Shown: piece by piece, positions 2,520 to 33,170 of the stretch
How positions within the stretch are numbered: the stretch's first letter is position 1
Layout: every line of letters starts with the position of its first letter
DNA from: Escherichia phage vB_EcoM_MM02
Length of the DNA: 64,000 bases
Direction: 5' to 3' (one strand)
Sequence record: MK373784.1
Notes under the pieces: model-generated
The model's database searches: none
Told to the model about the DNA's origin: nothing
What the model saw: the letters and a program-made list of their open reading frames with translations, nothing else
Position numbers and translations under genes: made by a program

Positions 2520-3620
2520 TTACGCTGTGAAGATTTTATCCCACATCGCAACAACTGCATCTCGGTTATACTTCTTCCATACGGCTTCAGCACGTTTAAC
2601 TCGAGCTTCGTATGTGTCAGTGAATTCTAATACAGCTTTTGTGTAAAGCGCAACTACTTCTTTCTTAGGAGTAGAGGAATCAATTTCTACCCGCACAGTA
2701 TCTGGGTCGTATTCGAATGTCGCGTGCGGATAATCCTTAAAAACTAACTGGATTACAGGGACACCTTTAGAGATGGCTTCAATAGAACTATTCTCTACCG
2801 TACCTGTGTCAGGACACGTATTAATAAGTGCTTTAGCTGTTTTAAGACGTTCCATGATTTCACTGTGTGGAGCATCAATAATAACAGGATATTTAGCCGG
2901 TGGTGCCCATTTGCTTGGACAATAACCAATACCATTTTCGCCTAGTGCTTTAATCGCTTCAAGAGCAACATCAGTACGACGCATTTTAGTGTCATAACGT
3001 TGTGCACTAATAATCAGATCCGTCGCCGGAAGAACTTCTGGCTTTTCAGTCAAACAAATAACCGGATAATCTTCGGCTTCAAACAACGGATTTGCTCGCC
3101 AATAATCATAATCAATTTTGTCAGTCAGACCTGAAGTCATATAACAATATTTACGTTCAAATTCACGGAAGGCTTTAGTAGGAGCATAACTCTTACCACC
3201 GTTCTTACGAATTTGAATAGTCTGGTCCCAAATTTGAACAATGCCACGAGATACCGGTTCAAATGGTGTTGCCATAAAATTCTTATGAACTTTAGAGAGA
3301 CCTGCGTCTTTAATTGCCTGAACGGTTAGTTTAGTCGGTTCCATAGTAACAACAAAATCGTATTCATGGATGCCGGCTAGTTCAACAATCTTACGAGCCA
3401 TAGTATAACTCATACCTAGACTGAATTTAGTCAGATGACCAACAGGATGATGATTAACCTTCCAATCACCAAATGTGTCATTATCAAAACCGATATAATC
3501 GATATCAGCACCGATGGACACAAGATATTTCAACACATTTAAATGTACTGCTTCAAGACCACCTTGTACACGTTCTGGGTTAAATGGGACTGCACGAGAT
3601 GGGATAAACATAACTTTCAT
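2520..3620 (-). CDS. putative GT-B fold glycosyltransferase (candidate DNA hmC sugar transferase)
   Basis: 366 aa. N-terminus MKVMFIPSR...GGLEAVHLNVLKYL and C-terminal TGTVENSSIEAISKGVPVI resemble the two conserved GT4/GT-B segments (N-terminal Rossmann start and the E-x7-E region). Not present at this position in T4. Confidence 0.5.
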   Translation of the reverse strand: MKVMFIPSRAVPFNPERVQGGLEAVHLNVLKYLVSIGADIDYIGFDNDTFGDWKVNHHPVGHLTKFSLGMSYTMARKIVELAGIHEYDFVVTMEPTKLTVQAIKDAGLSKVHKNFMATPFEPVSRGIVQIWDQTIQIRKNGGKSYAPTKAFREFERKYCYMTSGLTDKIDYDYWRANPLFEAEDYPVICLTEKPEVLPATDLIISAQRYDTKMRRTDVALEAIKALGENGIGYCPSKWAPPAKYPVIIDAPHSEIMERLKTAKALINTCPDTGTVENSSIEAISKGVPVIQLVFKDYPHATFEYDPDTVRVEIDSSTPKKEVVALYTKAVLEFTDTYEARVKRAEAVWKKYNRDAVVAMWDKIFTA

Positions 3621-6833: not shown

Positions 6834-6845
6834 AGTTGTTGTACA

Positions 6846-8323: not shown

Positions 8324-8354
8324 ATTTTTTTCTCTCTTTGTTTAAGTTGAATTC

Positions 8355-8384: not shown

Positions 8385-8386
8385 TA

Positions 8387-8881: not shown

Positions 8882-8912
8882 AATGTTTTTCCTGTTTGGT
8901 TAAGATAGAAAG

Positions 8913-8942
8913 ATTATACTCCAACCATCCTTGGTTGTAAAC
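8913..8942 (-). promoter_or_regulatory. early-promoter cassette, repeat copy (GTTTAC, 18 bp, TATAAT)
   Basis: attatactccaaccatccttggttgtaaac; spacer contains palindrome CAACCA/TGGTTG. Confidence 0.5.
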
Positions 8943-8947
8943 CGGTT

Positions 8948-9625
8948 TTATCGCTGTTTTACACTTAACGGGTCAGGATTCTCAGGGACATCTTCAAGGC
9001 CAAGCGCATAACGCTGAGCATATTTTAACATCAAAATATCTTTAGCACAATCATGAATACTATCATGGGCAACGAATCCTTTTAGCGTACCCATCGGTAA
9101 TGGACACATACTTAATCCTCGTGTCAACGAGTAAGCTTCGATTGCCGTACGAATATCACGTTGAGCCCAGAATTTAACCGGTTCTAATTTATCAGTATCA
9201 ATATCTGGTTCAAGAACACCTTCAACACGATAGAGGTCACGAATCAAATCGACCAAGATCGGGAAGTCAAAGCTCATACCACGGCACCACATCTGTGATT
9301 TCCATTGGTCAACTTTATTAGCTCGACAATAATCTAAAAAGATTTTAATGCCTTCAAGCGTAGTGACATCGTCTTCAGACGGGGCCAAGTTTTTACGTGC
9401 TTCTGCTGATTGTTCTTTCCACCATTTCATAGTGGATTTAGCGAAAACTCGCTTCCCTTTCTGAGAAGCTAAATTAAATTTAATTCGCTTACCTCGTTGA
9501 ACAAGTTCTTCAAATGATTCAACAACTTCAGGGTCGGAATTATATGCAATAACCGCAAGGTCAATAACAGCCGCTTTTGATGTATTGCCGAATGTTTCAA
9601 AATCTATAATAACATCAGTGCTCAT
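8948..9625 (-). CDS. dexA: exonuclease A (DnaQ-like 3'-5' exonuclease)
   Basis: 225 aa; IIDFETFG Exo-I (DxE) motif; size and position as T4 dexA, adjacent to dda. Confidence 0.7.
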   Translation of the reverse strand: MSTDVIIDFETFGNTSKAAVIDLAVIAYNSDPEVVESFEELVQRGKRIKFNLASQKGKRVFAKSTMKWWKEQSAEARKNLAPSEDDVTTLEGIKIFLDYCRANKVDQWKSQMWCRGMSFDFPILVDLIRDLYRVEGVLEPDIDTDKLEPVKFWAQRDIRTAIEAYSLTRGLSMCPLPMGTLKGFVAHDSIHDCAKDILMLKYAQRYALGLEDVPENPDPLSVKQR

Positions 9626-18831: not shown

Positions 18832-19080
18832 TTATTCTTTTTCGCGAATAATAATTACTTGTTGAGGCTGCTGAGCTGATTTCTTTTCGGCAACGATAGA
18901 CCAAATTAAAGTTCCAATCCAACCAACCATCGTCCAGTTAAAGAGTAAAGATACAAAGAAGATTGCTGTTGTGCTTTTTGTGCCACGAATAAGTGCGATT
19001 ACCCAAGGCAACATGTAAATGATGATTGAACCAATACCTGCGATTAAAACTGCTACTGAACTAACTACGAATAATTCCAT
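18832..19080 (-). CDS. superinfection-immunity (Imm) family membrane protein
   Basis: 82 aa, two TM helices; YMLPWVIALIRG...AIFFVSLLFNWTMVGWIGTLIWSI resembles the Imm superinfection-exclusion family. Confidence 0.5.
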   Translation of the reverse strand: MELFVVSSVAVLIAGIGSIIIYMLPWVIALIRGTKSTTAIFFVSLLFNWTMVGWIGTLIWSIVAEKKSAQQPQQVIIIREKE

Positions 19081-19141
19081 GTTAATTTCCTCTTGATTTG
19101 TTATGTTTATAGTATCTTGTTTTAACTTTGGCGTAAACCAA

Positions 19142-19510
19142 TTAATTAAATTTGTTTAAACGTTCAATACACTGGACATAGTTATTTGCGATTTGTTTCT
19201 GGGTAGGCTCTTTACCAGTGGTTTCAACATAACGAATGAATGCGATTTCAGTAGCCTGTAAGCAATGTTCTTTAACGCGTTGTTCTTTTGATAATGCTAC
19301 AGTATCAGAGTCACGATAACGTTGAGCATGGGCATCAGCTTGAATCATTCGATTACCTACAGTAACCGGGTCTTCCACTTCAACTTTAGGTTGGTCGTAC
19401 TGTTTAACATTCGGATTGTAAATCAATTGGCCAACGTTATTAGGGATAAAGCCATGGGCACCACATCCGGTTAATCCAAATACCATTGCTAAAGCGATTA
19501 ATTTTTTCAT
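19142..19510 (-). CDS. putative lipoprotein
   Basis: 122 aa; signal peptide with lipobox LTGC. Confidence 0.45.
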   Translation of the reverse strand: MKKLIALAMVFGLTGCGAHGFIPNNVGQLIYNPNVKQYDQPKVEVEDPVTVGNRMIQADAHAQRYRDSDTVALSKEQRVKEHCLQATEIAFIRYVETTGKEPTQKQIANNYVQCIERLNKFN

Positions 19511-22623: not shown

Positions 22624-23767
22624 GGTCGTTTTCTATATCTGCTGCAGATGGAGCATCAGAAGTTTTAACCGGAACTTTAGTTGTTGCTTTGCAATTAATA
22701 AGGTCATTAACAGCGTCATCAACTTCTTTAATAGAAGAGATAGCACCTAGTTTATATTTAGTTTCAATTGCGTCACGGAAAGGTTTGTGTTTAAACAAAG
22801 GTCCCCAGAATTCTACACAATCAGTAGCTTTAGCACGCCATGATTTTTCTTCACGAATCATTTCACCTGTTTCTTCGTCAAGGAATTCGCGAGCATACCA
22901 ACCGGCTTTAGGCTTAACTACAAAACCAATTTCAGTTGCCATTTCTAACAAGCCACTGAATGGGTCAATACCGCCATCAAAATTAACCGTGATCGGGAAA
23001 GTAGATTTCTCTTTAACTGTGCGAGATTTTTCTGCTTTCAACGTGAAGTCATAACCGGTCAATTCTGTACCTTCTTTAACCTGACGTTTAGAGATAAAGA
23101 ATACAGTGTTAGCAGAGTAAAGAATACCTGTACCACCACCCATAATCTCTTTAGGATATAGTCCGCCGATTTCCATTGCGGTATGGTTAATTGCAACACA
23201 CGGAATATCTTTAATAGTCAGATACGGGGTCACAATGCGGAACAGAGATTTAAGTGCCTTAGCACGAGACATATCACCTACAACTTTCTCGTTCAACGCA
23301 TCTTCGGTTTCTTTCTTAGATGCAGTATTACCGATTGAATCGATAAAGATAATAACTTTATCACCGCGTTCAATCGCGTCAAGCTGATTAGTCATATCAA
23401 CTTTAAGTTGTTCGACAGATTGAATCGGAGTATGAACTACACGGTCTAAATCAACACCCATTGAACGAAAATAAGATTCTGAAGCACCGAATTCTGAGTC
23501 ATAAAACAAACAGATTGCATCTTTATATTTCTTCATATATGCTGCAACCATGGTCAGCCCAAACAATGTTTTAAAGTGTTTAGAAGGAGCAGCAAAAATA
23601 GTTAAGCCTGATTGCAACCCGGCATTCAGTGCACCACCTAGTGCAATATTCAACATCGGAATACGAGTAGGGACTTCATCACGATTATTAAACAGCTTAG
23701 ACTTAGTCAAGTCTGCAGTCATTTTAGAAGTAGAAGCTTTAATCAGACGAGATTTTAAATCAGACAT
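22595..23767 (-). CDS. uvsX: UvsX recombinase (RecA/Rad51 family)
   Basis: 390 aa; RecA-like core with P-loop GLTIFAAPSKHFKT; size and synteny. Confidence 0.9.
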   Translation of the reverse strand: MSDLKSRLIKASTSKMTADLTKSKLFNNRDEVPTRIPMLNIALGGALNAGLQSGLTIFAAPSKHFKTLFGLTMVAAYMKKYKDAICLFYDSEFGASESYFRSMGVDLDRVVHTPIQSVEQLKVDMTNQLDAIERGDKVIIFIDSIGNTASKKETEDALNEKVVGDMSRAKALKSLFRIVTPYLTIKDIPCVAINHTAMEIGGLYPKEIMGGGTGILYSANTVFFISKRQVKEGTELTGYDFTLKAEKSRTVKEKSTFPITVNFDGGIDPFSGLLEMATEIGFVVKPKAGWYAREFLDEETGEMIREEKSWRAKATDCVEFWGPLFKHKPFRDAIETKYKLGAISSIKEVDDAVNDLINCKATTKVPVKTSDAPSAADIENDLDEMEDFDE

Positions 23768-23865
23768 TGTATTTTTCCATAGGCATCATTATATTTTACT
23801 CATGTTTAAAAGATAAGATGATTATATACTAAGGGTTATACAGCATTTAAAACTTTAAATGGCTC

Positions 23866-24414
23866 TTAACGAGCCCATTTGATAATTTCTGTAATCAAAT
23901 AATTACGTTCGCTTGCATTAAATCCTATAACTTTGTTAGCACCATCATGATTAAGTAATTGATACGTTTGGATTTTGTTATGAATTGCAAACTCTTCAAA
24001 ATGTGAAATGACTGTATTAAAACCGAATGAAGACAAAGTAATAAGGTCGTCTTCAAAACTTTCAGTCATTTCGTTACGTGTTAAAATAATTGTGAACACA
24101 TCATGGTTTTGGCAAAGACGAACATAATCCTGTTCATAAACGTCAAGAACCGAGTCCGTATCTTGTCGAATACGTCCATAAACCCAGTTACTAATATATC
24201 CACGGTCTAACAGATAAATCTTAGTAGGGTCTAAATAATTCAACATCGTTTCGAAGCAGCCAACTTCATTTCGAGACTTAACATCGAAACGCCCATCAAC
24301 TGTTCGTTTAGGGAAATCAATCTTTACATATCTTTCACTAATTTCCATTATGTCATTAATGAAAGTTGTTTTACCAGCATTATCTGGGCCATCTACTAAA
24401 ATAATTTTAGCCAT
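23866..24414 (-). CDS. P-loop kinase (nucleoside/nucleotide or sugar kinase-like)
   Basis: 182 aa; Walker A ILVDGPDNAGKTT and LDRGY motif as in dNK/TMPK or gluconate/shikimate-kinase-type P-loop kinases; occupies the T4 beta-gt slot. Confidence 0.5.
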   Translation of the reverse strand: MAKIILVDGPDNAGKTTFINDIMEISERYVKIDFPKRTVDGRFDVKSRNEVGCFETMLNYLDPTKIYLLDRGYISNWVYGRIRQDTDSVLDVYEQDYVRLCQNHDVFTIILTRNEMTESFEDDLITLSSFGFNTVISHFEEFAIHNKIQTYQLLNHDGANKVIGFNASERNYLITEIIKWAR

Positions 24415-24415
24415 T

Positions 24416-25315
24416 TTATTCCTCGATTACGACATCTTCATATTTAGGTATATTATACGGCGAAGAAATTAAAGCATTAAAGTAGATGAACTCACCAAGA
24501 CCTGGATGGAATACTTCTTCAGGATTTTCGAAATATTGAATCTTCGGACGTCCTTTAAGAATTTGATAGTACTCAGTTTTAGTTGGTTTAAAAATTCGAA
24601 TCAGCGCTTCTTCAGGATACTTATTTCTGTCGAAGCTATTATTTGGATCGGTTATATAAAGCGGTTGACCTAATTGAATTGCGCATTCAACAACTTGTTC
24701 AAAACGATAGCATGGGTCACTAATTCGAAATGGATGAAAAATACCATCTAGATAAATAGGAGCCAAATCACCTACAAGACGCTGCATGATGGAAGGACGT
24801 ATAACTTTCTGCGTTACGATAATCTTATTACCATCTGCACCTGCGTTAACCAGCACTTCTTTTTGACGTTCATTCAACACAGTAGTTTGAAGTGAACGAT
24901 TAACCGACAACATATCAGTTTTTAAGAATTCGTCAATATAAAAACGTGGTTTATTAGGGTCTGCAGTGATATTGAAATTGAATTCCACATCAAAAGCGCC
25001 GTCATATCCAGTGATATCTGTGATTAGAAAATCACAATCATAATAAGCAATTAATGAATCAACTACAAATTCATTTTCAGACCAGAAATATTTACGAGTG
25101 TTATACGCGTTATCTTTATACCATAATGGAACAAACTTAAATTCTGGAAAAAGACGTTCGCATTCTTTAATATCAGATGCATTACGTGGATATGTAATCA
25201 CATCACCCGGATTAGCACGGTGCAAATGAAGTTGGAAGTTGCCATCCTTAAGGATAGCATACTGTCCAGTTTCATAAGACCGCATACTCAAGATTGGTAC
25301 GCGGAAAATAGCCAT
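24416..25315 (-). CDS. hypothetical protein (beta-gt slot, no similarity recognised)
   Basis: 299 aa; translationally coupled with neighbours. Confidence 0.4.
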   Translation of the reverse strand: MAIFRVPILSMRSYETGQYAILKDGNFQLHLHRANPGDVITYPRNASDIKECERLFPEFKFVPLWYKDNAYNTRKYFWSENEFVVDSLIAYYDCDFLITDITGYDGAFDVEFNFNITADPNKPRFYIDEFLKTDMLSVNRSLQTTVLNERQKEVLVNAGADGNKIIVTQKVIRPSIMQRLVGDLAPIYLDGIFHPFRISDPCYRFEQVVECAIQLGQPLYITDPNNSFDRNKYPEEALIRIFKPTKTEYYQILKGRPKIQYFENPEEVFHPGLGEFIYFNALISSPYNIPKYEDVVIEE

Positions 25316-26031
25316 TAGTCAAGGAATCCTTTAACATAATCAAAATCACGTTCAAACACATGGGCACTTACCATGGTATGAGTATAAACACCAACTTCTA
25401 CACCGCATTCGTTAGCGATATAATGAAGTAATTTTCCTTGGAGATAAAAATCCAACTGCATAACAACAGCACAGTTCTGGGAACGCATATGACAGTGGGT
25501 ATAAAGCTTACCATCACGAATATAATAAGTCACTGAGTCAGTACATGGATATTCAAGCGTTTCGTCCGAATCAAGCAAAGCCTGATCAGAACTTTCTAGA
25601 ATTTGGAACACAACTCTTCGAGAGTTAGGCTTCTCTTTAAGTTCTTTTAGAAGAGCTGGTAATTGGGCCACAATGCGAGGACCATAGAAAGTGTTGAAGT
25701 TCGCCGGCAAAACATCTGATTTTGGTTTAGAAATAAATTTAGCGACATTAGGATATGCCTTAAACGCTTCTTCTGCATCAGTACCACCAGAAATCATAAA
25801 CTTCCAGAAGTCTTCGGCATATTCATAAGAGATGCGGTTAATACGTGGGTCGGTCATTTTGAATGATGATGGAGTGTCAACAACTACTGTCATAGACCCA
25901 ATTTCATTACAACGTCCAATACGAGAATCAGTTACGAATTCCGGGTTTTCTAAAATTTCACGATTGACTGCTTTAAATGCGGTTTGAAAATCTGCGGCTT
26001 TGATATATTTCATTGTGTTATGTTTTCCCAT
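25315..26031 (-). CDS. 42: dCMP hydroxymethylase (thymidylate-synthase fold), gene 42
   Basis: 238 aa; TS-family features (...LEYPCTDSV... with candidate catalytic Cys, C-terminal HVFERDFDYV); size and position as T4 gp42. Confidence 0.7.
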   Translation of the reverse strand: MGKHNTMKYIKAADFQTAFKAVNREILENPEFVTDSRIGRCNEIGSMTVVVDTPSSFKMTDPRINRISYEYAEDFWKFMISGGTDAEEAFKAYPNVAKFISKPKSDVLPANFNTFYGPRIVAQLPALLKELKEKPNSRRVVFQILESSDQALLDSDETLEYPCTDSVTYYIRDGKLYTHCHMRSQNCAVVMQLDFYLQGKLLHYIANECGVEVGVYTHTMVSAHVFERDFDYVKGFLD

Positions 26032-26073
26032 GTTTACCTCAATACAATTTATTATATACTCAATTCGTAAAGC

Positions 26074-26313
26074 TTATTTGAATTTCTTGACAATGTTGAT
26101 ATAACGTAAAGCTTCAGCATCGATACTTCCAAGAACACTATGAAGAAATGCATCAGCGTAGTATTCCAATTGAACAGGTTCTTTAATCACTTTAGCCGCT
26201 TTGGTTTCAAACAGGCCCATCAGGGCCTTTTTAAGAATTTGTTCGTTAGTGTTCAGTTTAATAGTCAAAATCTCTTCATTAAGTTGGTGGTTAAAAGTTT
26301 TTCTAGAAATCAT
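26074..26313 (-). CDS. hypothetical protein
   Basis: 79-aa ORF. Confidence 0.35.
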   Translation of the reverse strand: MISRKTFNHQLNEEILTIKLNTNEQILKKALMGLFETKAAKVIKEPVQLEYYADAFLHSVLGSIDAEALRYINIVKKFK

Positions 26314-27488
26314 TCCGGGTACCTCAAAGCGTCATCAGAGTTAGTTATATCAATAATAGATATAGAGTTTTCTGCTAACCCGTTTTTAGACAATTGACGT
26401 TTATAATATCTTTCACAATATGTACACGTCGTCCCGCAGATTTCATTAGCACAATCGAAATCTGGATGTCTGAACCACCTTTTTTCTAAAAAGCCATCTA
26501 ACAAAGAGGTTTCAATATTTACTGTATGTGAAAACTCAGTTTCGTTTTCAAGAGTGAAAATAGTCTCTAAAGGCTTCCACAGTTCTAACAAATTACCTTC
26601 AAACTTTTCAGAAGCGTATGCTTCAAGAACTTTCAAAATGTAGTCTGTGCTACCTGTACGTCCTGAAACTTTGAATTGAGTGATACCAATATCATTATAA
26701 AGTTTCAAATCTTGAGGACGAACAAAACGAGTTCTCAACCAGTTAAATGGGTCTGTATCACGAGCTTTAATACAGTGCTGCATTGGATAACCGTTTAAGG
26801 ATTTAGCATCGTCAGCTGTAACATCAGTACTATGGAAAATATAGCAAGAGTCACGATAGCTACAATGTGTTGTATACCCTTTACCAGCATTAGAACAGAA
26901 CTCATTTACAAGAACTTCAAATATTATATTGTTCTTATTGCAAAACTCTGCTGCACGCTTCAGGAAAGAAACTGAACGGTTCTTATGAATTCCGCAGCAG
27001 ACCTTTTTGATATTATATTGGTCATGCAAGTATTTGATTTGAGTTACAGCATCGACATGTAGAATTGTTGAAACTTCAATCTCAATATCTTTATTGACTT
27101 CACGAACAATTTCCATAACAACAGGGTTAGCGATAGTAATACGCCATACGCCTATTGACCAAAGATACTGAACATAATCCTGAATAGCTTTCTTCTTCCA
27201 CTCAACTAGTTCTCTTTTTGAACCAGGATTTATCGTGTTGAGTGTATAGTTAAAGCAAATACCTAATTCGTTACAACGTTTAACGTAGTCTTCTAACATC
27301 TTTTTGTCAACGTCAGGAAGCCTAAAATCAGGTCTGGCTGCTACAAAAGCCATTTTTCTTGTAGAGCCGTATACTTCGTTTATCAAGCTATTAGGATAAG
27401 TTTTATTGAGCTCTACGATTTTATCAAGAAGAGCTAAATCAAAATTCGTTCCAATTTTAAAAGTATTCATTTTTTTTTTGCATCTCAC
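26310..27488 (-). CDS. Cys-rich protein of unknown function with C-terminal CxxxCxxC cluster
   Basis: 392 aa; cysteines at ...EFCSNAGKGYTTHCSYRDSC... and C-terminal CANEICGTTCTYC; family not assignable from sequence alone. Confidence 0.45.
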   Translation of the reverse strand: MRCKKKMNTFKIGTNFDLALLDKIVELNKTYPNSLINEVYGSTRKMAFVAARPDFRLPDVDKKMLEDYVKRCNELGICFNYTLNTINPGSKRELVEWKKKAIQDYVQYLWSIGVWRITIANPVVMEIVREVNKDIEIEVSTILHVDAVTQIKYLHDQYNIKKVCCGIHKNRSVSFLKRAAEFCNKNNIIFEVLVNEFCSNAGKGYTTHCSYRDSCYIFHSTDVTADDAKSLNGYPMQHCIKARDTDPFNWLRTRFVRPQDLKLYNDIGITQFKVSGRTGSTDYILKVLEAYASEKFEGNLLELWKPLETIFTLENETEFSHTVNIETSLLDGFLEKRWFRHPDFDCANEICGTTCTYCERYYKRQLSKNGLAENSISIIDITNSDDALRYPE

Positions 27489-27529
27489 GTTAATTGATGC
27501 GATGGCTTTTGCAGGTCTTACTTAAATTA

Positions 27530-27931
27530 TTATAGATTAGGTTTATATGATTTAAATGTTTCGAATCCGCCTTTATTCATAAGAGCTTTGAATTCGTCAG
27601 GACGCATAGCTTTGTCGTCGATAATCCAATCATATACTGGTTTATGTGTTAGCAAATTATGGTACTTCAAACCAATGTTTTCCAAGTTCTGAATCAGACT
27701 TGGGAGAATGTCAATTGCTATACGTCCAGGACCTACTGACTTCATACCGCGAGCAGTGTAAAGCGTTATGGTATGCCCTGCATCATACAGGGCATTAATG
27801 GCAGACACCATTTCGACGTCCGGTTTGAAGTTCACGTAATCACGATTGTTATTCCACTCTGTTATACAATCATCGACATCAAAACAAAGATTAAGCATGT
27901 TTTCTACACGGTGCATTAGATTCGTTCCCAT
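27530..27931 (-). CDS. HAD-superfamily phosphatase (KdsC-like small sugar-phosphate phosphatase)
   Basis: 133 aa; motif I FDVDDCIT (DxDx[T/V]), Thr motif ITLYTAR, C-terminal K...DD (HKPVYDWIIDDK). Confidence 0.55.
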   Translation of the reverse strand: MGTNLMHRVENMLNLCFDVDDCITEWNNNRDYVNFKPDVEMVSAINALYDAGHTITLYTARGMKSVGPGRIAIDILPSLIQNLENIGLKYHNLLTHKPVYDWIIDDKAMRPDEFKALMNKGGFETFKSYKPNL

Positions 27932-29601
27932 TGATGAGTGATATCGCCACCGATTGGACGATAGGAAACACCAGTTTCTTTATCAGTTAGTACCCATTTA
28001 CCAGGATTTTTTGTAATCAGAGTAGCCGTTACAGGTTCTGCTACGTCATAACTAATAGAGCCGTCTTGAAGTACACGGCCCATGTTACGTAATTGCTTAG
28101 TCAGAAGTTCCATACCTTTATAATATGCGGCTACCGCTTTAAGTGGATTATTCTTGAAATAACCACCTAATGCAATCCAGATAATTGCTACAGCCAAATG
28201 ATGATACTCGTTAAACGAACTCATCTTTCCATATTTGTAAACTAATGGATTGATGTTAATAGTCACATTACAAGTTGTTTCGTCAATAGTAAACTGTCCC
28301 CAGGTCGGATTAGCGTTGAATTCATCATAACCTGAAACAGCATAAAGCACTTTAGCTTCATCATACAATTTTGGCCCATAAATCTTGGTTTCGCCAAAAT
28401 ATCCACGAGGGTCGATAAACTTGACTTCGCCGTTATCAGTAATCATAGTATTACTGAAGTTCGGGTCACCATGAATAACAGAGTACTGTCCCTGAGAACG
28501 GTTATGATAACGAATAAGGTGTTCTAAAGCTTGTTTCAACATTGGCTTCAGACGTCCAATCTTAGTGTAGTTCACATGTGTGATTTTACCAAATGAATCA
28601 ATCAATGGTTGAATGCTTTCACAACGATCAATAACTTTCGTATAGAATTCTTTAGTGAAATCACGACGAACAGTTTCAGGACTTACAAAATAAGTGTCTG
28701 TGCTGAATTTCAGTGCATCTAAAATTGCATCAACAATTTGTGGACGAGCAAGACTTGATTTGGATTTAATATATTCAAATGCCGGCTTACCTTTAATGCG
28801 TTCCATTTCAAAGTTATTTTCATTAACAGAAACTAACTGAGGAACTGAATCTGATTTCACTTTAAGATACCATGAAATCTCATCTTTCTGAAGAGCTCGA
28901 CCCTGTTCGGTTAATGCGAATTTAGTTACAGTTTCTTCACCAATTTCAACTGCATTAAAACTACGATTAAGTTCACGAACTTCATGAGCTTTTTCAAGTT
29001 TAGGCATATCACCTAAATCAATTAGATTCATAAGCTCTGATTTATTGAATGCGCTGCCGTAAAGGAATTCTACGAAATCGCGTCCTTTGCAGTATTCATG
29101 AATTTCCTCATCGGTAGAACCCATATAGAATTCCCAGTCTTTGAACTGATAAATTCCTACAACATTACCACCTGTTGAACCTACGTTAGTGATATTTTCA
29201 CCGTCGAAATTATATCGACATTCGTCACCCTTAACATAGATTGCGTTAACATTCCAAGACCATGAACCAAAATCGGGAATAATATCACACCAGTTAACAA
29301 TTACATTATGGCCGTCTAAATCTTTGTGTAATTTAGCAAGAGCATAAGCAGAACCGTACGCTTCATCAACTGTACGAATAGTCACATTGAACCCTTCTTG
29401 CTCACAATAAGCTCGAACAGTTTCAGCAAATTTTGAATGAACTACTACAATAATTTCATCTGCGCCAAGGTCAGAATAAATTGTATACAAATTGCTCAGA
29501 ATAGTGTCTTGTTTATAGTTAACAAGCACCTTAGGAATATGATGCGTTATTGGATATAAACGAGTCGCCAGTCCAGCACCAAGAATAACAGCTTTTTTCA
29601 T
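27916..29601 (-). CDS. bifunctional sugar-1-phosphate nucleotidyltransferase / anomeric sugar kinase (APH-like)
   Basis: 561 aa; N-terminal NTP-transferase signature AVILGAGLATRLYP; C-terminal kinase motifs HGDPNFSNTMI...FIDPRG (Brenner HxDxxxxN plus DFG-like), as in AmgK/NahK-type kinases. Confidence 0.65.
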   Translation of the reverse strand: MKKAVILGAGLATRLYPITHHIPKVLVNYKQDTILSNLYTIYSDLGADEIIVVVHSKFAETVRAYCEQEGFNVTIRTVDEAYGSAYALAKLHKDLDGHNVIVNWCDIIPDFGSWSWNVNAIYVKGDECRYNFDGENITNVGSTGGNVVGIYQFKDWEFYMGSTDEEIHEYCKGRDFVEFLYGSAFNKSELMNLIDLGDMPKLEKAHEVRELNRSFNAVEIGEETVTKFALTEQGRALQKDEISWYLKVKSDSVPQLVSVNENNFEMERIKGKPAFEYIKSKSSLARPQIVDAILDALKFSTDTYFVSPETVRRDFTKEFYTKVIDRCESIQPLIDSFGKITHVNYTKIGRLKPMLKQALEHLIRYHNRSQGQYSVIHGDPNFSNTMITDNGEVKFIDPRGYFGETKIYGPKLYDEAKVLYAVSGYDEFNANPTWGQFTIDETTCNVTININPLVYKYGKMSSFNEYHHLAVAIIWIALGGYFKNNPLKAVAAYYKGMELLTKQLRNMGRVLQDGSISYDVAEPVTATLITKNPGKWVLTDKETGVSYRPIGGDITHQWERI

Positions 29602-29782
29602 GTTGAAGTCCTCATTGGTAAGTAGGAGTATTGTACACTATTCTAGTTAAAGCATTCATACTTTGCTTGTAGTCCAATCATAATCCATCCAATTACAAGT
29701 GTTGGAATCATTACTGGAGCCGTTAAGCTCCAGTAGATAGTCATGACAAGCATCAATAGTAAAAGTCCTATTGTTATTGCTT

Positions 29783-30418
29783 TCATTGTTCGCCTCGTAA
29801 CATGGCACCTAGTGCACCGCCTGGATGGAACTTAAGGAAATCATTAGAGGTAAATCCACGTTCAGACGAAAGGTTGATAGCGAACGTATCGATAAGCGCT
29901 AACAACAATGTAGTAGACATTGTCGGAGCTAAAGAGTTCTCGTCAACTTCTACCGCGATACCGGTGCAGAACGTATAATCAAAAAGAGCTTCGTATTCTT
30001 GTGGAATGTCAGGGTTACAATGTAACAGAATCTGTTTAACCTGAGGACGAATCATACGAAGATGTTTAGCAACACCTATCATTTCTTCAGTCTTACCAGA
30101 ACGACTGATGTGAACTAATACATCATTAGGTGCAATAAATCCTGCGTCACCATGAGAATAATGCCCGGTGTTCAAATACATGCTAGGAATACCTAGTGAA
30201 GCAAAAGTCTCGGAAGCTTTAGTTGCGATATTAGCATTCTTACCAACACCTGTAATAATTACCCGGCTTTCATAATTACTAAGTCCAGGGCGTCGAAGAG
30301 TTTCTAGAATAGCATTATAACGAGCAGGGTTTTGACTAATTACTTTAGCCATAGTGGCAAGAGATGAAGCTTGTTTTACGATTGCGTCAATAGCGATAGT
30401 AATAGGAGTAGTTTTCAT
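29783..30418 (-). CDS. SIS-domain sugar-phosphate isomerase (arabinose-5-phosphate isomerase KdsD/GutQ-like)
   Basis: 211 aa; SIS motifs ITGVGKNANIATKASETFASLGIP and HISRSGKTEE; no CBS domains. Confidence 0.7.
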   Translation of the reverse strand: MKTTPITIAIDAIVKQASSLATMAKVISQNPARYNAILETLRRPGLSNYESRVIITGVGKNANIATKASETFASLGIPSMYLNTGHYSHGDAGFIAPNDVLVHISRSGKTEEMIGVAKHLRMIRPQVKQILLHCNPDIPQEYEALFDYTFCTGIAVEVDENSLAPTMSTTLLLALIDTFAINLSSERGFTSNDFLKFHPGGALGAMLRGEQ

Positions 30419-30458
30419 ATTTCTCTCATTTAATTAGTTGGCCGTCCTTGGCATTATA

Positions 30459-33170
30459 TCAAAAATCAAACATATCGAACAGAGATGCTTTCTTCTCGTA
30501 ATCGAGTTTAGCTGCTGATGTGAATCCTTCAAGTGGTTTAATAAATGTCTTCTCAAGGAGAACAGTGTAGTCCATCCAATGAAGTACATCGTCTTTAATT
30601 AAATCTGTGATTTCAGTACCAGAAGGCCATGCGATACATTTATCACCGAATGGGTTTCCTTCACGTAAAGGCAGAACATATACTTTTTCACCTTCTACAA
30701 CTTGTGGTGCATCAATATTACCTTTGATAGCTCGGTTATATGTCAGAATTCCACGAATATGGAACGGACATTTAGGACCAGGGAATCCACCGACATCATA
30801 TTTAGCAATGTTATTCGCAGAAGATACCGACGCGATGCTAATATAATTCAATTGACGGAATTCTTTTTCAAACTCTTTAAAATATTCTTGTAATGATTCT
30901 TCACCTTCTTGAAGCATACGACGAATACATTCTTTAAGAGCTTTCTGTACTGCTTTAGGGGTCGAAGATTTCTGAGTCTCTAGACCCATGATTTTGAGTT
31001 TAGGCTCAGCGTAACGAGTGCCTTCCATATCCCACACGTTTAATGCATAACGTTTCTTACCAGTCCAGAATCCACCAATACCTTTAGAACCGAGCGGAGG
31101 ACCAGCGATAGCTTCTCGGTCCATGAACATTAAGTGTTGTTTATTGTTCATGTATTCACACATTTCACGGAAACCTTTATCAATAGCAGGTTCCATACGT
31201 TCACGTGCAAACTTATCTAAGAAGTCTACCCAATGGTTGGTATCACGGAATTTAGATTCACCAACCTTATCAATAATTTTATCCGCAGATACGTAAATGG
31301 AGTCTGTATCACCATAAAGAACGAAAGCTTCACCTTCTGTACCACAAACTTCATTCAGATATTCATTAACTTTACGTTCAATCCACTGTAAAGCCATTTG
31401 CCCGAATGTTGTGATTGCAGTAGCATTACGCAAATCATAATAACGGAACCAAACGTTGCCAAGTGCACCATAAAGTGAGTTGATGAGCAATTTACGGTTA
31501 ATTTGTGCAGTCATACCTGCAACTTCAGTACGTTGAGCTCTAAACAACATTTCATTAAGAGATTTAGCAGACAACTTTTTAATCTTTTCTTTAATCTCAT
31601 CGCTGAAGTCGAAACGATAATCAACATCTAATGGTTCGTCAACAGAAAGATTAGGATTATGCAATGCCTCTTTAATTATTTCACCATTACGTTGAGCTGC
31701 AAGCATGTAACCTTTATGTTCTTTACGTTGATTAAAGACCTTAGTGATTTCAGTTGGAACTACACCATCACGGTCTTTATAATACATCATGCCGTTAGGA
31801 GAACAACTGTACACATCTGAAGGACGTTCAGCGATTGCGTTAATATAATCATGTAATGGAGCTACTTTAAACGTTCCTGCTATTGTTTCTGGGCTAATAT
31901 TCACTTGGCGAATGATGCTTGGATACAGAGATGTAAGGTCGAAACTCATTACATATTTGTATCGATTTGGAATAGGTTCCTTAACAAAAGCGCCAGGATA
32001 AGGTTGAACCGGGTGAGAACGACCTTGTGGAATCACCTTGTTCTGCTCTTTAAGGCTATTAAAAATAATAGCATCCCATGTTTTAATTGGGCTAAACACA
32101 GATTGAATCTGTATCTTAGCATAATAACCCATGTCCAAACTCAAGTTGATGAACTGACGCTTAGCATCAATTTGCAATACACGATACACATCGATAATGT
32201 TATAAGAAATATATCGTTGGTGATTGCTTTCACGAAGTTTAGAAATAGGGCCGTCATATTTCAGTTTACCAACGTTCAATTCAAATTCTGAAATGTAATC
32301 CAGAGAATACGACGGTTGATTGGTAAAAGAGAATTTTTTGTAAAGGTCAATGTAATCAAGAACAGAGATACCGAACAATGTAATGATTTCACGAGAACCA
32401 TACATGTTTTCGATAACTTTAACACGAGTTTTACGATGCGGCGATAAACGTTTCGCAGTAGATTCGCCAAAAATATTCTTGATTCGGTTATACACATATG
32501 GAATATCAAATGACTCAACGTTCCATCCAGTCAAAATGACAGGAGTTTTCTGTTGCCAGAAGTTGAGATATTCCATCAACAATTCTTTTTCGTTATCGAA
32601 CGGCATATAAATGATTTTATCGATAATTTCAGATGGAACTTCATCACCGCCTTGTTCTTGAAGCTTAGCAGCGATTTCAATAGACCATTCTTCTACATTA
32701 CCATATGGAGAATTCAATAGATCAAATACGTAGAACCTGTCGTCAATTGAGTCATAATGGGTGATAGCATCAATCGGATGTTTTGCTTGTGACGGCTCAG
32801 GGAACCCGTCCGGAGATGTTACTTCGATGTCGAAGTTAGCCACACGAATTTTTGTATGGTCGTATTTGATTTCATAGTTATAAGTGTCAGACAAATACGC
32901 CAATTTGAAATCGTCCATGCCAAGTGCTTCAAGTCCGATATCTTCCATGCGTTTAATCCATTGGGAGGCATCACGCATATTAGCGAACAACTTACGAGTA
33001 CACGGCTTACCGTAGATATCGAAATATTTCGTAGCCTGACTTTCCGGACAATGAGCAAACAGTGATGGTTTATATTCTACTTCACGAGTACGTTCACGGC
33101 CATTAGAATCGATGTAACGTTCAAAAATTGAATCACCAATCTGTTCAACCGTTAAGTAAAATTCTTTCAT
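30459..33170 (-). CDS. 43: family B DNA polymerase with 3'-5' exonuclease, gene 43
   Basis: 903 aa; Exo motifs FDIEV, YNIIDVY; Pol motifs DFTSLYPSII, KILINSLYGALG, YGDTDS; sequence matches my memory of the RB69-type polymerase. Confidence 0.97.
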   Translation of the reverse strand: MKEFYLTVEQIGDSIFERYIDSNGRERTREVEYKPSLFAHCPESQATKYFDIYGKPCTRKLFANMRDASQWIKRMEDIGLEALGMDDFKLAYLSDTYNYEIKYDHTKIRVANFDIEVTSPDGFPEPSQAKHPIDAITHYDSIDDRFYVFDLLNSPYGNVEEWSIEIAAKLQEQGGDEVPSEIIDKIIYMPFDNEKELLMEYLNFWQQKTPVILTGWNVESFDIPYVYNRIKNIFGESTAKRLSPHRKTRVKVIENMYGSREIITLFGISVLDYIDLYKKFSFTNQPSYSLDYISEFELNVGKLKYDGPISKLRESNHQRYISYNIIDVYRVLQIDAKRQFINLSLDMGYYAKIQIQSVFSPIKTWDAIIFNSLKEQNKVIPQGRSHPVQPYPGAFVKEPIPNRYKYVMSFDLTSLYPSIIRQVNISPETIAGTFKVAPLHDYINAIAERPSDVYSCSPNGMMYYKDRDGVVPTEITKVFNQRKEHKGYMLAAQRNGEIIKEALHNPNLSVDEPLDVDYRFDFSDEIKEKIKKLSAKSLNEMLFRAQRTEVAGMTAQINRKLLINSLYGALGNVWFRYYDLRNATAITTFGQMALQWIERKVNEYLNEVCGTEGEAFVLYGDTDSIYVSADKIIDKVGESKFRDTNHWVDFLDKFARERMEPAIDKGFREMCEYMNNKQHLMFMDREAIAGPPLGSKGIGGFWTGKKRYALNVWDMEGTRYAEPKLKIMGLETQKSSTPKAVQKALKECIRRMLQEGEESLQEYFKEFEKEFRQLNYISIASVSSANNIAKYDVGGFPGPKCPFHIRGILTYNRAIKGNIDAPQVVEGEKVYVLPLREGNPFGDKCIAWPSGTEITDLIKDDVLHWMDYTVLLEKTFIKPLEGFTSAAKLDYEKKASLFDMFDF

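What the first reader, a model, noticed from the sequence alone, without database searches (positions are those of the whole stretch)
27530..30418. Sugar-nucleotide module (isomerase, phosphatase, kinase/nucleotidyltransferase) between genes 42 and 43
Seen in sequence: three co-directional genes with clear family motifs sit where T4 has only imm/imm.1. They are a SIS-domain sugar-phosphate isomerase (GVGKNANIA, HISRSGKTEE; 29783..30418), a fused NTP-transferase/APH-like anomeric kinase (GAGLATRL; HGDPNFSN...IDPRG; 27916..29601) and a small HAD phosphatase (FDVDDCIT; 27530..27931). Established knowledge: KdsD-type SIS enzymes interconvert ribulose-5-P and arabinose-5-P; KdsC-like HAD enzymes dephosphorylate sugar phosphates; AmgK/MurU-type kinase plus nucleotidyltransferase pairs turn a free sugar into an NDP-sugar. 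Inference: Ru5P to A5P to free arabinose to arabinose-1-P to NDP-arabinose, giving a donor for glycosylating 5-hydroxymethylcytosine made by the adjacent gene 42. This matches the absence of alpha-/beta-glucosyltransferases in this window. I recall that arabinosylated hmC has been reported for RB69-like phages, but I am not aware that these enzymes have been biochemically characterised.
Basis: partly seen in the sequence, partly recalled or inferred. Interest (0 to 1): 0.85.

Follow-up and report, generated by a model that had tools for sequence, protein, structure and literature searches.

The report
Phage UDP-arabinose pathway for DNA arabinosylation

Summary
Observation confirmed. Three co-directional minus-strand genes lie at the stated coordinates with the stated motifs: a SIS isomerase, a fused nucleotidyltransferase/APH-like kinase, and a small HAD phosphatase. 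The window is the first 64 kb of a Mosigvirus (RB69-like) genome.

Interpretation partly supported. The proteins are 97-99.7% identical to those of RB69, Bas46 and HY126. For those phages the pathway was predicted in 2018 and characterised in 2025-2026 (HY126 AfhE/AfhF). PDB 9IQW is about 98% identical to the phosphatase.

- Reaction order. Published route: arabinose-5-P, then arabinose-1,5-bisphosphate (kinase), then arabinose-1-P (phosphatase), then UDP-arabinofuranose. There is no free arabinose.
- Acceptor base. It is 5-hydroxycytosine, not hydroxymethylcytosine. The adjacent "gene 42" is a flavin/O2-dependent 5-hydroxy-dCMP synthase, 25% identical to T4 gp42, with the D169N signature.

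Novelty: already known.

Side finding. The neighbouring U32 "peptidase" (26310..27488) is paired with chorismate mutase in four other T4-like genera. In unrelated uncultured phages it is paired with the base-proximal glycosyltransferase and, in one contig, DAHP synthase, with no ThyA homologue nearby. It may be an O2-independent, prephenate-dependent cytosine hydroxylase.

The parts
29783..30418 (-). Single-domain SIS arabinose-5-phosphate isomerase (homologue of RB69 gp55), with no CBS domains. Proposed reaction: ribulose-5-P to arabinofuranose-5-P.
   Evidence: Family hits: Pfam SIS E=8e-10; TIGR00393 KpsF/GutQ E=9e-32 and KdsD NF008141 E=4e-30, both below the equivalog cutoff; phrog_5670 E=2e-116. 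Solved relatives: PDB 3etn E=1e-24, 5uqi, 2xhz. The residues recalled from memory as the KdsD active site (K59/H88/E111/E152/H193) align with K60/H89/E112/E157/H198. Identity: 96.7% to RB69, 99.5% to Bas46, 97.6% to HY126.
29643..29786 (-). 47-aa predicted membrane ORF, translationally coupled to the isomerase by an ATGA overlap. Function unknown. Conserved at this position in related phages.
   Evidence: ORF; sequence overlap; phrog_3610 E=7e-27. Homologues sit between the SIS and AfhE genes in LC53 and Entb_45, at 60-64% identity.
28972..29601 (-). N-terminal domain (about residues 1-210) of the bifunctional enzyme (AfhE homologue; RB69 ORF53_52c). It is a sugar-1-phosphate nucleotidyltransferase that makes UDP-arabinofuranose from Araf-1-P and UTP.
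   Evidence: NTP_transferase E=8.5e-10. AlphaFold pLDDT 94. Foldseek top hits are MurU 4y7u, LicC 1jyk and RmlA. G10, R14, K24, D106, D195 and D198 are invariant in 44 homologues.
27916..28971 (-). C-terminal domain (residues 211-561) of the same protein. It is an APH/choline-kinase-like kinase that phosphorylates C1 of arabinose-5-P to give Araf-1,5-bisphosphate.
   Evidence: AlphaFold pLDDT 95. Foldseek hits are APH(2'') 3ham (E=1e-7), choline/ethanolamine kinases and LicA. K227, E241, G378-D379, N384 and D397-P-R-G are invariant; H377 is nearly invariant. The whole protein is 97.1% identical to the HY126 protein, 99.3% to Bas46 and 99.5-99.7% to the two RB69 fragments.
27530..27931 (-). Small HAD phosphatase (AfhF homologue; RB69 gp51) that removes the 5-phosphate of Araf-1,5-bisphosphate. 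The true start is probably at 27916.
   Evidence: TIGR01689 E=2e-13. PDB 9iqw E=4e-86 with 2 substitutions in the native region of the 129 aligned positions; PDB 1xpj E=3e-10. HAD motifs read from the sequence: D18-x-D20, T59, K97, D105-D106. Identity 98.4% to HY126. TAATG overlap at 27916.
26310..27488 (-). U32-family protein with ten invariant cysteines (RB69 gp50), function not established. Proposed here to be an O2-independent, prephenate-dependent pyrimidine C5 hydroxylase.
   Evidence: Peptidase_U32 E=8e-11. At least 80% identical in all 221 phage records that carry it. Followed by chorismate mutase in four other genera. Ten invariant Cys in 32 homologues. Relatives in uncultured phages lie next to GT1-like genes and, in one contig, a DAHP synthase.
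26074..26313 (-). 79-aa ORF that overlaps the U32 stop codon by 4 nt. It occupies the position held by chorismate mutase in other genera but is not detectably one.
   Evidence: phrog_8601. No Pfam hit. BLASTP and hhalign against the phage chorismate mutases are negative.
25315..26031 (-). Thymidylate-synthase homologue, the "gene 42" of the finding. It is a flavin/O2-dependent 5-hydroxy-dCMP synthase, not a dCMP hydroxymethylase.
   Evidence: PDB 9iqc/9ir2 E=1e-159, 97.5% identity. 98.7% identical to RB69 gp48. 24.8% identical to T4 gp42. D169N plus N177D in the alignment. Activity of RB69 gp48 shown in PMC13326640.
24416..25315 (-). 299-aa putative first (base-proximal) arabinosyltransferase, the homologue of RB69 gp46:47.
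   Evidence: phrog_3891 E=1e-155. 99% identical to the two RB69 fragments and to HY126. The assignment is from PMC13326640, Table 1 and text.
23866..24414 (-). Thymidylate-kinase-like nucleotide kinase, the homologue of RB69 gp45.
   Evidence: phrog_761 E=2e-45. 98.4% identical to RB69 gp45. Listed as a nucleotide kinase in PMC13326640 Table 1.
2520..3620 (-). Second arabinosyltransferase (homologue of RB69 ORF003c), between rIIA.1 and gene 39.
   Evidence: 99% identical to RB69p003. Proposed as an arabinosyltransferase in PMC6024577 and PMC13326640.

Best explanation
The three genes are the phage-encoded UDP-D-arabinofuranose pathway of a Mosigvirus.

**Steps:**
1. The SIS enzyme converts host ribulose-5-P to arabinofuranose-5-P. 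This supplements the host's own KdsD/GutQ supply.
2. The C-terminal APH-like kinase domain of the 561-aa protein phosphorylates the anomeric C1, giving arabinofuranose-1,5-bisphosphate.
3. The small HAD phosphatase removes the 5-phosphate, giving Araf-1-P.
4. The N-terminal nucleotidyltransferase domain couples Araf-1-P to UTP, giving UDP-Araf.

Two phage glycosyltransferases (24416..25315 and 2520..3620) then put one or two arabinofuranoses on 5-hydroxycytosine in phage DNA. That base is supplied as 5-hydroxy-dCMP by the adjacent thymidylate-synthase homologue. The modified DNA resists restriction and CRISPR nucleases.

**What is shown and what is inferred:**
- Shown here: gene structure, family and fold assignments, catalytic motifs, near-identity to the characterised phages, and synteny.
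- Taken from the literature: the chemistry of the DNA base (RB69, Bas46, NP) and the enzyme activities (HY126 AfhE/AfhF).
- Inferred: that the same activities hold for this 97-99% identical phage, and that phosphorylating before dephosphorylating is what locks the sugar in the furanose form.
For: - **ORFs and motifs:**
- **Family hits:**
- **Solved relatives:** 9iqw for the phosphatase and 9iqc for the ThyA homologue; 3etn, 5uqi and 2xhz for the isomerase, with the recalled KdsD active-site residues conserved.
- **AlphaFold and Foldseek:** N-terminal domain matches MurU/LicC/RmlA. C-terminal domain matches APH(2'')/choline kinase/LicA.
- **Invariant catalytic residues** in 44 homologues.
- **Identity:** 97-99.7% to RB69 and Bas46 and to HY126.
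- **Literature:**
  - Prediction in RB69: PMC6024577.
  - Araf-5hoC structure by MS/NMR, and UDP-Araf used by DNA glycosyltransferases in vitro: PMC13326640.
  - AfhE/AfhF activities: PMC13326640 citing He et al. 2026.
  - Bas46 DNA is ara-ara-5hoC: preprint 10.64898/2025.12.19.695335.
  - Mosigvirus NP: PMC13390438.
- **Independent support found here:**
  - Cellular homologues fuse HAD, SIS, nucleotidyltransferase and kinase in one 890-955-aa polypeptide.
  - AfhE, HAD, the ThyA-like gene, GT1 and the kinase are present in all 7 T4-like loci compared. SIS is missing from 3 of them, as expected if host arabinose-5-P is the true entry substrate.
  - There is no sugar mutase in the cassette, although the DNA sugar is furanose.
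Against: - The primary biochemical papers (He et al. 2026, Nat Chem Biol; Mahler et al. 2025, Cell Host Microbe) could not be read. The order of kinase and phosphatase therefore rests on the summary in PMC13326640.
- Table 1 of that same paper still labels the RB69 proteins with the older scheme, Ara5P to Ara to Ara1P.
- No activity has been measured for this exact phage.
- The isomerase scores below the NCBIfam equivalog cutoffs because it lacks CBS domains.
- In the held text, the arabinose-5-P isomerase assignment for the RB69, DLP3 and HY126 proteins rests on structural similarity only.
Confidence: 0.87

Rival explanations
1. The HAD phosphatase first hydrolyses arabinose-5-P to free D-arabinose. 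The kinase then acts as an AmgK/NahK-type anomeric kinase on the free sugar, and nucleotidyl transfer follows.
For: - The folds are those of the AmgK/MurU and LicA/LicC pairs, which act on unphosphorylated substrates.
- Table 1 of PMC13326640 still carries this labelling for RB69 gp51 and gp52:53.
Against: - The text of PMC13326640, citing the biochemistry of He et al. 2026 on 97-98% identical HY126 proteins, states that AfhE is a D-arabinose-5-phosphate kinase plus UDP-D-arabinose pyrophosphorylase, and that AfhF dephosphorylates Araf-1,5-P2.
- Inference: free D-arabinose is mostly pyranose. The DNA sugar is furanose and the cassette has no mutase.
Confidence: 0.08
2. The module is an auxiliary metabolic cassette for a host-type envelope pathway (Kdo, capsule or heptose), not for DNA modification. 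Database names suggest this: 'capsule biosynthesis protein', 'phosphoheptose isomerase', 'KpsF', 'GlmU'.
For: - PHROG and GenBank product names.
- The best NCBIfam hits are KpsF/GutQ and the EcbF/BcbF capsule phosphatase.
Against: - There is no KdsA, KdsB, KdsC or heptose-pathway partner in the cassette.
- All equivalog cutoffs are missed.
- In 7 of 7 T4-like loci the genes are flanked by the 5-hydroxy-dCMP synthase, a nucleotide kinase and the DNA glycosyltransferase.
- Virion DNA of near-identical phages carries arabinofuranose.
Confidence: 0.02
3. The donor is an NDP-arabinose other than UDP-Araf, for example GDP, CDP or dTDP, or the pyranose form.
For: The N-terminal domain resembles cytidylyl-, thymidylyl-, guanylyl- and uridylyltransferases about equally. 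Sequence alone does not fix the nucleotide.
Against: - AfhE is reported as a UDP-D-arabinose pyrophosphorylase.
- The DLP3 glycosyltransferases extended RB69 DNA only with UDP-Araf.
Confidence: 0.05

Closest known systems
Afh pathway of Escherichia phage HY126 (AfhE, AfhF); RB69 gp51, gp52:53 and gp55; Acinetobacter phage DLP3 gp81-83
   Same: Same genes in the same order between DNA polymerase and uvsX. Identity is 97.1% (AfhE), 98.4% (AfhF) and 97.6% (SIS) to HY126, and 97-99.7% to RB69 and Bas46.
   Different: Strain-level substitutions only. This window has the intact 561-aa and 299-aa ORFs, which are split in the RB69 reference by sequencing errors.
ADP-heptose pathway (GmhA isomerase, HldE kinase/adenylyltransferase, GmhB phosphatase)
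   Same: The same four-step logic, which is established knowledge: a SIS isomerase makes a sugar phosphate; a bifunctional enzyme phosphorylates C1; a HAD phosphatase removes the distal phosphate; the same bifunctional enzyme adds the nucleotide.
   Different: The kinase here has an APH/choline-kinase fold, not the PfkB ribokinase fold. The nucleotidyltransferase is GlmU/RmlA/MurU-like, not the HldE cytidylyltransferase type. The sugar is a pentofuranose and the nucleotide is UDP. No heptose-family model reaches its cutoff.
AmgK-MurU (MurNAc recycling) and LicA-LicC (phosphocholine) kinase/nucleotidyltransferase pairs
   Same: These are the closest folds. MurU and LicC match the N-terminal domain. 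APH-like kinases, including LicA, match the C-terminal domain.
   Different: Those are separate proteins, act on non-phosphorylated substrates and need no phosphatase. Here the two domains are fused, the substrate is a sugar 5-phosphate and a HAD step intervenes.
KdsD/GutQ and the single-domain arabinose-5-P isomerase of Bacteroides fragilis (PDB 3etn)
   Same: SIS fold, and conservation of the residues recalled as the KdsD active site.
   Different: No tandem CBS domains (211 aa). The protein feeds DNA modification instead of Kdo synthesis.
T4 hydroxymethylcytosine glucosylation (gp42 plus alpha- and beta-glucosyltransferases)
   Same: The same strategy: a thymidylate-synthase homologue makes a hydroxylated dCMP, and glycosyltransferases decorate it. 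The locus is also the same, between genes 43 and uvsX.
   Different: The base is 5-hydroxycytosine, not hydroxymethylcytosine. The sugar is arabinofuranose, and its donor is not a host metabolite, so the phage must carry its own sugar-nucleotide pathway. gp42 is only 25% identical.

Membership tests
AfhE (bifunctional arabinose-5-P 1-kinase / UDP-arabinose pyrophosphorylase of arabinosylating phages) | N-terminal sugar-1-P nucleotidyltransferase domain with the GxGxxR...K signature | tested here: met
   GAGLATRL...PK. NTP_transferase E=8.5e-10. G10, R14 and K24 are invariant. Foldseek matches MurU/LicC/RmlA.
AfhE (bifunctional arabinose-5-P 1-kinase / UDP-arabinose pyrophosphorylase of arabinosylating phages) | C-terminal APH/choline-kinase-like domain with the HxDxxxxN catalytic loop and a Mg-binding Asp | tested here: met
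   HGDPNFSN and IDPRG. G378, D379, N384 and D397 are invariant; H377 is nearly invariant. Fold confirmed.
AfhE (bifunctional arabinose-5-P 1-kinase / UDP-arabinose pyrophosphorylase of arabinosylating phages) | Orthology to the characterised HY126 protein | tested here: met
   97.1% identity over 561 aa, at the same position in the cassette.
AfhE (bifunctional arabinose-5-P 1-kinase / UDP-arabinose pyrophosphorylase of arabinosylating phages) | Enzymatic activities: Ara5P to Ara-1,5-P2, and Ara1P + UTP to UDP-Araf | not testable with these tools
   Known only from the summary of He et al. 2026 in PMC13326640.
AfhF (HAD phosphatase for arabinose-1,5-bisphosphate) | HAD motifs I-IV | tested here: met
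   D18-x-D20, T59, K97 and D105-D106, read from the translation. They align with PDB 1xpj and 9iqw.
AfhF (HAD phosphatase for arabinose-1,5-bisphosphate) | Orthology to the characterised or crystallised protein | tested here: met
   98.4% identical to the HY126 gene product. PDB 9iqw E=4e-86.
   The only NCBIfam hit is TIGR01689 EcbF/BcbF, with no KdsC model at E <= 0.01. There is no Pfam hit.
KdsD/GutQ arabinose-5-phosphate isomerase | SIS domain with the active-site Lys, His, Glu, Glu and His | tested here: met
   Pfam SIS. K60/H89/E112/E157/H198 align with KdsD K59/H88/E111/E152/H193. The catalytic roles of these residues are recalled from the KdsD literature, not re-read.
KdsD/GutQ arabinose-5-phosphate isomerase | C-terminal tandem CBS domains; equivalog score | tested here: not met
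   211 aa with no CBS domains. Scores of 105-111 bits against cutoffs of 204-505. It resembles the single-domain isomerase 3etn instead.
ADP-heptose pathway (GmhA/HldE/GmhB) | PfkB-type kinase and HldE-type adenylyltransferase; GmhA/GmhB family scores | tested here: not met
   The kinase has the APH fold. HddC is only a weak hit among many nucleotidyltransferases. The PHROG name 'phosphoheptose isomerase' for the HAD protein is a mislabel.
5-hydroxy-dCMP synthase (thymidylate-synthase superfamily), for the adjacent 'gene 42' | Catalytic Cys146, N177D (dCMP specificity) and the D169N signature | tested here: met
   Alignment with E. coli ThyA and T4 gp42. The signature is defined in PMC13326640. 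97.5% identical to PDB 9iqc.
U32 prephenate-dependent hydroxylases (UbiU/UbiV, RlhA, TrhP), for the neighbouring gene 26310..27488 | U32 domain | tested here: met
   PF01136 at 42 bits against a cutoff of 22.
U32 prephenate-dependent hydroxylases (UbiU/UbiV, RlhA, TrhP), for the neighbouring gene 26310..27488 | Four-Cys [4Fe-4S] motif | tested here: inconclusive
   Three of the four canonical Cys align (C198, C209, C215); the second is Gly. Ten Cys are invariant in the phage family, including a C-terminal CX4CX3CX2C. Pairwise BLASTP to RlhA, TrhP and UbiU is not significant.
U32 prephenate-dependent hydroxylases (UbiU/UbiV, RlhA, TrhP), for the neighbouring gene 26310..27488 | Dependence on prephenate; O2-independent hydroxylation | not testable with these tools
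   Indirect evidence only: chorismate mutase follows the gene in 4 genera, and a DAHP synthase follows it in one uncultured phage.

The most novel reading that the evidence does not exclude
The sugar module is one half of a larger cassette. The cassette's unexplained member is the U32 Fe-S protein directly downstream (26310..27488). I propose that it is an O2-independent, prephenate-dependent cytosine-C5 hydroxylase.

It would be the anaerobic counterpart of the flavin/O2-dependent ThyA-like 5-hydroxy-dCMP synthase. The two known parallels are UbiU/V versus UbiI/H/F, and TrhP versus TrhO. Such an enzyme would let enterobacterial phages build arabinosyl-5-hydroxycytosine DNA in the anoxic gut.

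In many uncultured phages that lack a ThyA homologue nearby, it would be the only hydroxylase feeding a glycosyl-5-hydroxypyrimidine DNA modification.

I could not read He et al. 2026 or Mahler et al. 2025, so I cannot exclude that this has already been proposed. PMC13326640 (July 2026) lists the protein only as 'sugar or heterocycle reductase'.
Probability: 0.45. Interest if true: 0.75.

Novelty: already known. Interest (0 to 1): 0.3.

Why it matters
Arabinosyl-5-hydroxycytosine DNA decides which restriction, CRISPR and glycosylase defences can stop Mosigviruses, a group often chosen for phage therapy. It also hampers sequencing and engineering of these phages. Recognising the cassette in a genome predicts the modification without chemistry.

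For this window the value is in correct annotation. Database names for these genes are misleading: 'GlmU', 'phosphoheptose isomerase', 'capsule biosynthesis protein', 'dCMP hydroxymethylase', 'peptidase'.

The open question is the U32 gene. If it proves to be an anaerobic hydroxylase, it would explain how an O2-requiring DNA modification is kept up in anoxic hosts. It would also add a DNA-nucleotide substrate to the prephenate-dependent U32 hydroxylases.

Tried and rejected
- **Reading the primary papers.** He et al. 2026 and Mahler et al. 2025 are not held. Searches for AfhE/AfhF and for arabinosyl-hydroxy-cytosine found only papers that cite them.
- **Is the 79-aa ORF (26074..26313) a diverged chorismate mutase, like the gene at that position in other genera?** Rejected. 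There is no Pfam hit. BLASTP gives E=0.15 and E=7. hhalign gives probability 0.1.
- **KdsC or heptose-pathway membership of the HAD protein.** Rejected.
- **Promoter and terminator scan of 23500..31000.** Uninformative: 22 promoter-like sites against 25 expected, and 4 terminator-like sites against 3.7 expected.
- **Pairwise BLASTP of the U32 protein against E. coli RlhA, TrhP and UbiU.** Not significant. Only the Pfam profile and the multiple alignment relate them.
- **Whole-protein Foldseek of the 561-aa model.** The results were swamped by nucleotidyltransferase hits, so the kinase domain had to be modelled and searched separately.
- **Composition profile.** It shows no compositional island at the module: GC 0.34-0.41, like the flanks.

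Full report
**1. What is there**

The window is the first 64 kb of a Mosigvirus (RB69-like T-even) genome. It starts at rIIA and is about 98% identical in DNA to many Mosigvirus isolates. Its DNA polymerase at 30459..33170 is 99.8% identical to that of RB69.

The three ORFs of the finding are exactly where stated, all on the minus strand: 29783..30418 (211 aa), 27916..29601 (561 aa) and 27530..27931 (133 aa). Each quoted motif is in the translation.

The genes are tightly packed:
- The isomerase stop overlaps the start of a 47-aa membrane ORF (ATGA).
- A GAGGA Shine-Dalgarno sequence precedes the 561-aa gene.
- The stop of the 561-aa gene overlaps an ATG of the phosphatase gene (TAATG at 27916).

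That second ATG, not the one at 27931, is the start used in the RB69 annotation and in the crystallised construct.

The comparison with T4 holds:
- T4 has only imm and imm.1 between genes 42 and 43.
- The window has no alpha- or beta-glucosyltransferase homologue.
- imm and imm.1 homologues lie elsewhere, at 18835..19504.

**2. Family and fold**

*Isomerase.*
- It hits Pfam SIS. Its best NCBIfam hits are KpsF/GutQ and KdsD (E = 1e-30 to 1e-32), but below the equivalog cutoffs because it has no CBS domains.
- Its closest solved relatives are the single-domain isomerases 3etn and 5uqi and the E. coli KdsD SIS domain 2xhz.
- The residues I recall as the KdsD active site (K59, H88, E111, E152, H193) are all conserved.

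*561-aa protein.*
- It folds with high confidence (pLDDT 94).
- Residues 1 to about 210 match MurU, LicC and RmlA-type sugar-1-phosphate nucleotidyltransferases.
- Residues 211-561, modelled separately (pLDDT 95), match aminoglycoside, choline and ethanolamine kinases, including LicA.
- In 44 homologues down to 28% identity, the nucleotide-binding G10/R14/K24, the kinase K227/E241, the G378-D379...N384 catalytic loop and the D397-P-R-G motif are invariant. H377 is nearly invariant.

*133-aa protein.*
- It carries HAD motifs I-IV.
- It hits only the EcbF/BcbF phosphatase model.
- It differs at 2 native positions over the 129 aligned residues from PDB 9iqw.

**3. Identity with characterised phages**

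| Phage | Identity of cassette proteins |
|---|---|
| RB69 and Bas46 | 97-99.7% (orf79 94-95%) |
| HY126 | 97-99.5% (orf79 92.5%) |

*Thomas et al. 2018.* They found arabinose in RB69 DNA. They showed that ORF053c and ORF052c are one 561-aa gene. They proposed that gene and ORF055c for UDP-arabinose synthesis.

*Lee et al. 2026 (PMC13326640).*
- MS/MS and NMR show that RB69 cytosines are replaced by beta-D-Araf-(1-3)-alpha-D-Araf-5-hydroxy-2'-deoxycytidine. The sugar is linked by an ether to C5, so the base is 5-hydroxycytosine and not hydroxymethylcytosine.
- The thymidylate-synthase homologue gp48 makes 5-hydroxy-dCMP with oxygen from O2 and a flavin cofactor.
- UDP-Araf is the donor used by the DNA glycosyltransferases in vitro.
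- Citing He et al. [quoted passage not shown] It also states that AfhF is the Mg-dependent phosphatase that converts Araf-1,5-bisphosphate to Araf-1-P.

*Other sources.* Two further papers report the same modification for Mosigvirus NP and for Bas46.

*The window's "gene 42".* It is only 24.8% identical to T4 gp42. It carries the D169N and N177D signature and is 97.5% identical to PDB 9iqc.

**4. Mechanism**

The best-supported route is:
1. Ribulose-5-P to arabinofuranose-5-P (SIS enzyme; host KdsD/GutQ also contribute).
2. Araf-5-P to Araf-1,5-bisphosphate (kinase domain).
3. Araf-1,5-bisphosphate to Araf-1-P (HAD phosphatase).
4. Araf-1-P to UDP-Araf (nucleotidyltransferase domain).
5. Transfer to 5-hydroxycytosine by the glycosyltransferases at 24416..25315 and 2520..3620. 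The latter is 99% identical to RB69 ORF003c.

This is the logic of the ADP-heptose pathway (GmhA, HldE, GmhB), built from different kinase and transferase folds.

- Many cellular homologues fuse HAD, SIS, nucleotidyltransferase and kinase in one 890-955-aa protein. This is a classical indication that the four activities belong to one pathway.
- In seven T4-like loci from different genera, AfhE, HAD, the ThyA homologue, GT1 and the nucleotide kinase are always present. SIS is missing from three of them (Dhakavirus, a Klebsiella phage, Shewanella phage Thanatos-2). That is expected if host arabinose-5-P is the real entry substrate and the phage isomerase only boosts supply.
- The DNA sugar is a furanose and the cassette has no mutase. 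Keeping the 5-phosphate on until C1 has been phosphorylated would hold the sugar in the furanose ring. This last point is my inference.

It still appears in Table 1 of PMC13326640, and I could not read the primary biochemistry.

**5. Novelty**

The module is already known. It was predicted in 2018. The DNA chemistry and the enzyme activities were published in 2025-2026, and crystal structures have been deposited.

**6. What remains open: the neighbouring U32 gene**

Forty-two bases downstream of the phosphatase gene lies a 392-aa U32-family protein (26310..27488; Pfam E=8e-11). PMC13326640 lists it only as 'sugar or heterocycle reductase' and does not discuss it.

*Conservation and host range.* The protein is remarkably conserved. 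It is at least 80% identical in all 221 phage records that carry it, whereas AfhE falls to 43% in the same groups. All listed hosts are facultative anaerobes. No Acinetobacter phage record is among the 221 matches, although 57 Acinetobacter phage records have an AfhE homologue.

*Link to the shikimate pathway.* In four other genera the gene that overlaps the U32 stop codon is a chorismate mutase scoring above Pfam's cutoff:
- Winklervirus LC53
- Kanagawavirus Entb_45
- a Klebsiella phage
- Shewanella phage Thanatos-2

The pair stays together in Thanatos-2 even though it has moved within the cassette. In Mosigviruses an unrelated 79-aa ORF sits at that position.

*Relatives in unrelated phages.* The protein's nearest relatives outside T4-like phages are about 300 proteins at 46-58% identity. 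The contexts examined are uncultured phage contigs with PolIII-alpha, primase, SSB, UDG, ThyX, MazG and dCMP deaminase genes.
- In 9 of the 12 loci examined, a homologue of the window's base-proximal glycosyltransferase lies immediately upstream of U32, or in L018 about 2 kb upstream.
- In L018 the U32 gene is preceded by SIS and AfhE-like genes (29% identity, E=3e-50). It is followed by a DAHP synthase (E=3e-70, against 3e-17 for KDO8P synthase).
- Other contigs add TAGT-like glycosyltransferases and UDP-galactopyranose mutase.
- None of the 12 loci has a thymidylate-synthase (ThyA-type) homologue within the 6-8 kb flanks.

*Cysteines.* Ten cysteines are invariant across the family, including three of the four canonical U32 cluster ligands and a C-terminal CX4CX3CX2C.

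*Precedent.* Known U32 proteins are O2-independent hydroxylases that use prephenate, the product of chorismate mutase:
- RlhA makes 5-hydroxycytidine in rRNA.
- TrhP makes 5-hydroxyuridine in tRNA.
- UbiU and UbiV hydroxylate ubiquinone precursors.

In each known case they back up an O2-dependent enzyme (PMC5727448, PMC6599085, PMC10990095).

*Reading.* The most economical reading is that the phage U32 protein is an anaerobic route to 5-hydroxycytosine nucleotides. This is comparative inference only:
- Mosigviruses lack the mutase.
- Dhakaviruses lack U32.
- The substrate level (dCMP or DNA) is unknown.
- I cannot exclude that the unread papers already address it.

**7. Verdict**

- Observation: confirmed.
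- Interpretation: partly supported.
- Novelty: already known.
- Interest as a discovery: low.
- A follow-up lead of real interest lies in the adjacent gene.

Noticed in passing
window 26310..27488 (-); L003 7681-9191; L006 5013-6421; L007 5001-6403; L008 6001-7391: The U32 'peptidase' next to the sugar module is followed, with a 4-nt overlap, by a bona fide chorismate mutase (Pfam CM_2 above cutoff) in four other T4-like genera. It is at least 80% identical in all 221 phage records that carry it. No Acinetobacter phage record is among the matches. This suggests a prephenate-dependent, O2-independent hydroxylase that backs up the O2-dependent 5-hydroxy-dCMP synthase.
   Followed up: yes
L015-L026 (uncultured phage contigs; U32 gene at about 6001-7100 or 8001-9100 of most loci): About 300 relatives of the phage U32 protein (46-58% identity) were found; the 12 loci examined are on non-T4 phage contigs. 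In 9 of those 12, a homologue of the window's 299-aa glycosyltransferase lies immediately upstream or, in L018, about 2 kb upstream. L018 also has SIS and AfhE-like genes before U32 and a DAHP synthase after it. No ThyA-type gene lies within the 6-8 kb flanks.
   Followed up: partly
proteins P0084, P0088, P0089, P0091, P0092, P0095, P0109 (homologues of window 27916..29601): Cellular homologues are single 890-955-aa proteins with the domain order HAD, SIS, nucleotidyltransferase, kinase; one comes from a Ceratiomyxa transcriptome. Others (P0106, P0111) carry a cupin-type mannose-6-P-isomerase-like C-terminus instead. This suggests analogous pathways for other sugars.
   Followed up: partly
window 26074..26313 (-); L005 6161-6440: The 79-aa ORF after U32 is specific to Mosigviruses and has no detectable family. 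In the HY126 record it is broken by two single-base homopolymer insertions. These may be sequencing errors on modified DNA or real frameshifts.
   Followed up: partly
window 29643..29786 (-): A 47-aa ORF predicted to be a membrane protein is translationally coupled to the isomerase. It is conserved between the SIS and AfhE genes in LC53 and Entb_45 (60-64% identity). Its function is unknown.
   Followed up: no
L004 (Dhakavirus dhabil), L007 (Klebsiella phage), L008 (Thanatos-2): These phages keep AfhE, HAD, the ThyA-like gene, GT1 and the kinase but have no SIS isomerase in the cassette. They presumably rely on host arabinose-5-P. Dhakavirus also lacks U32.
   Followed up: partly
window 18835..19080 and 19157..19504 (-): Homologues of T4 imm (63% identity) and imm.1 (32%) are present but have moved about 8 kb away from the 42-43 interval.
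   Followed up: no
window 27916..27931: The phosphatase ORF has two possible starts. The downstream ATG at 27916 overlaps the stop of the upstream gene (TAATG). It matches the RB69 annotation and the crystallised construct, so the protein is probably 128 aa, not 133.
   Followed up: yes
GenBank and PHROG annotations of this cassette: Public product names are inconsistent and often misleading. The names seen are 'bifunctional protein GlmU', 'phosphoheptose isomerase' or 'capsule biosynthesis protein' (the HAD phosphatase), 'dCMP hydroxymethylase' (the 5-hydroxy-dCMP synthase), 'putative RNA polymerase binding protein' (the glycosyltransferase) and 'peptidase/collagenase' (U32).
   Followed up: no
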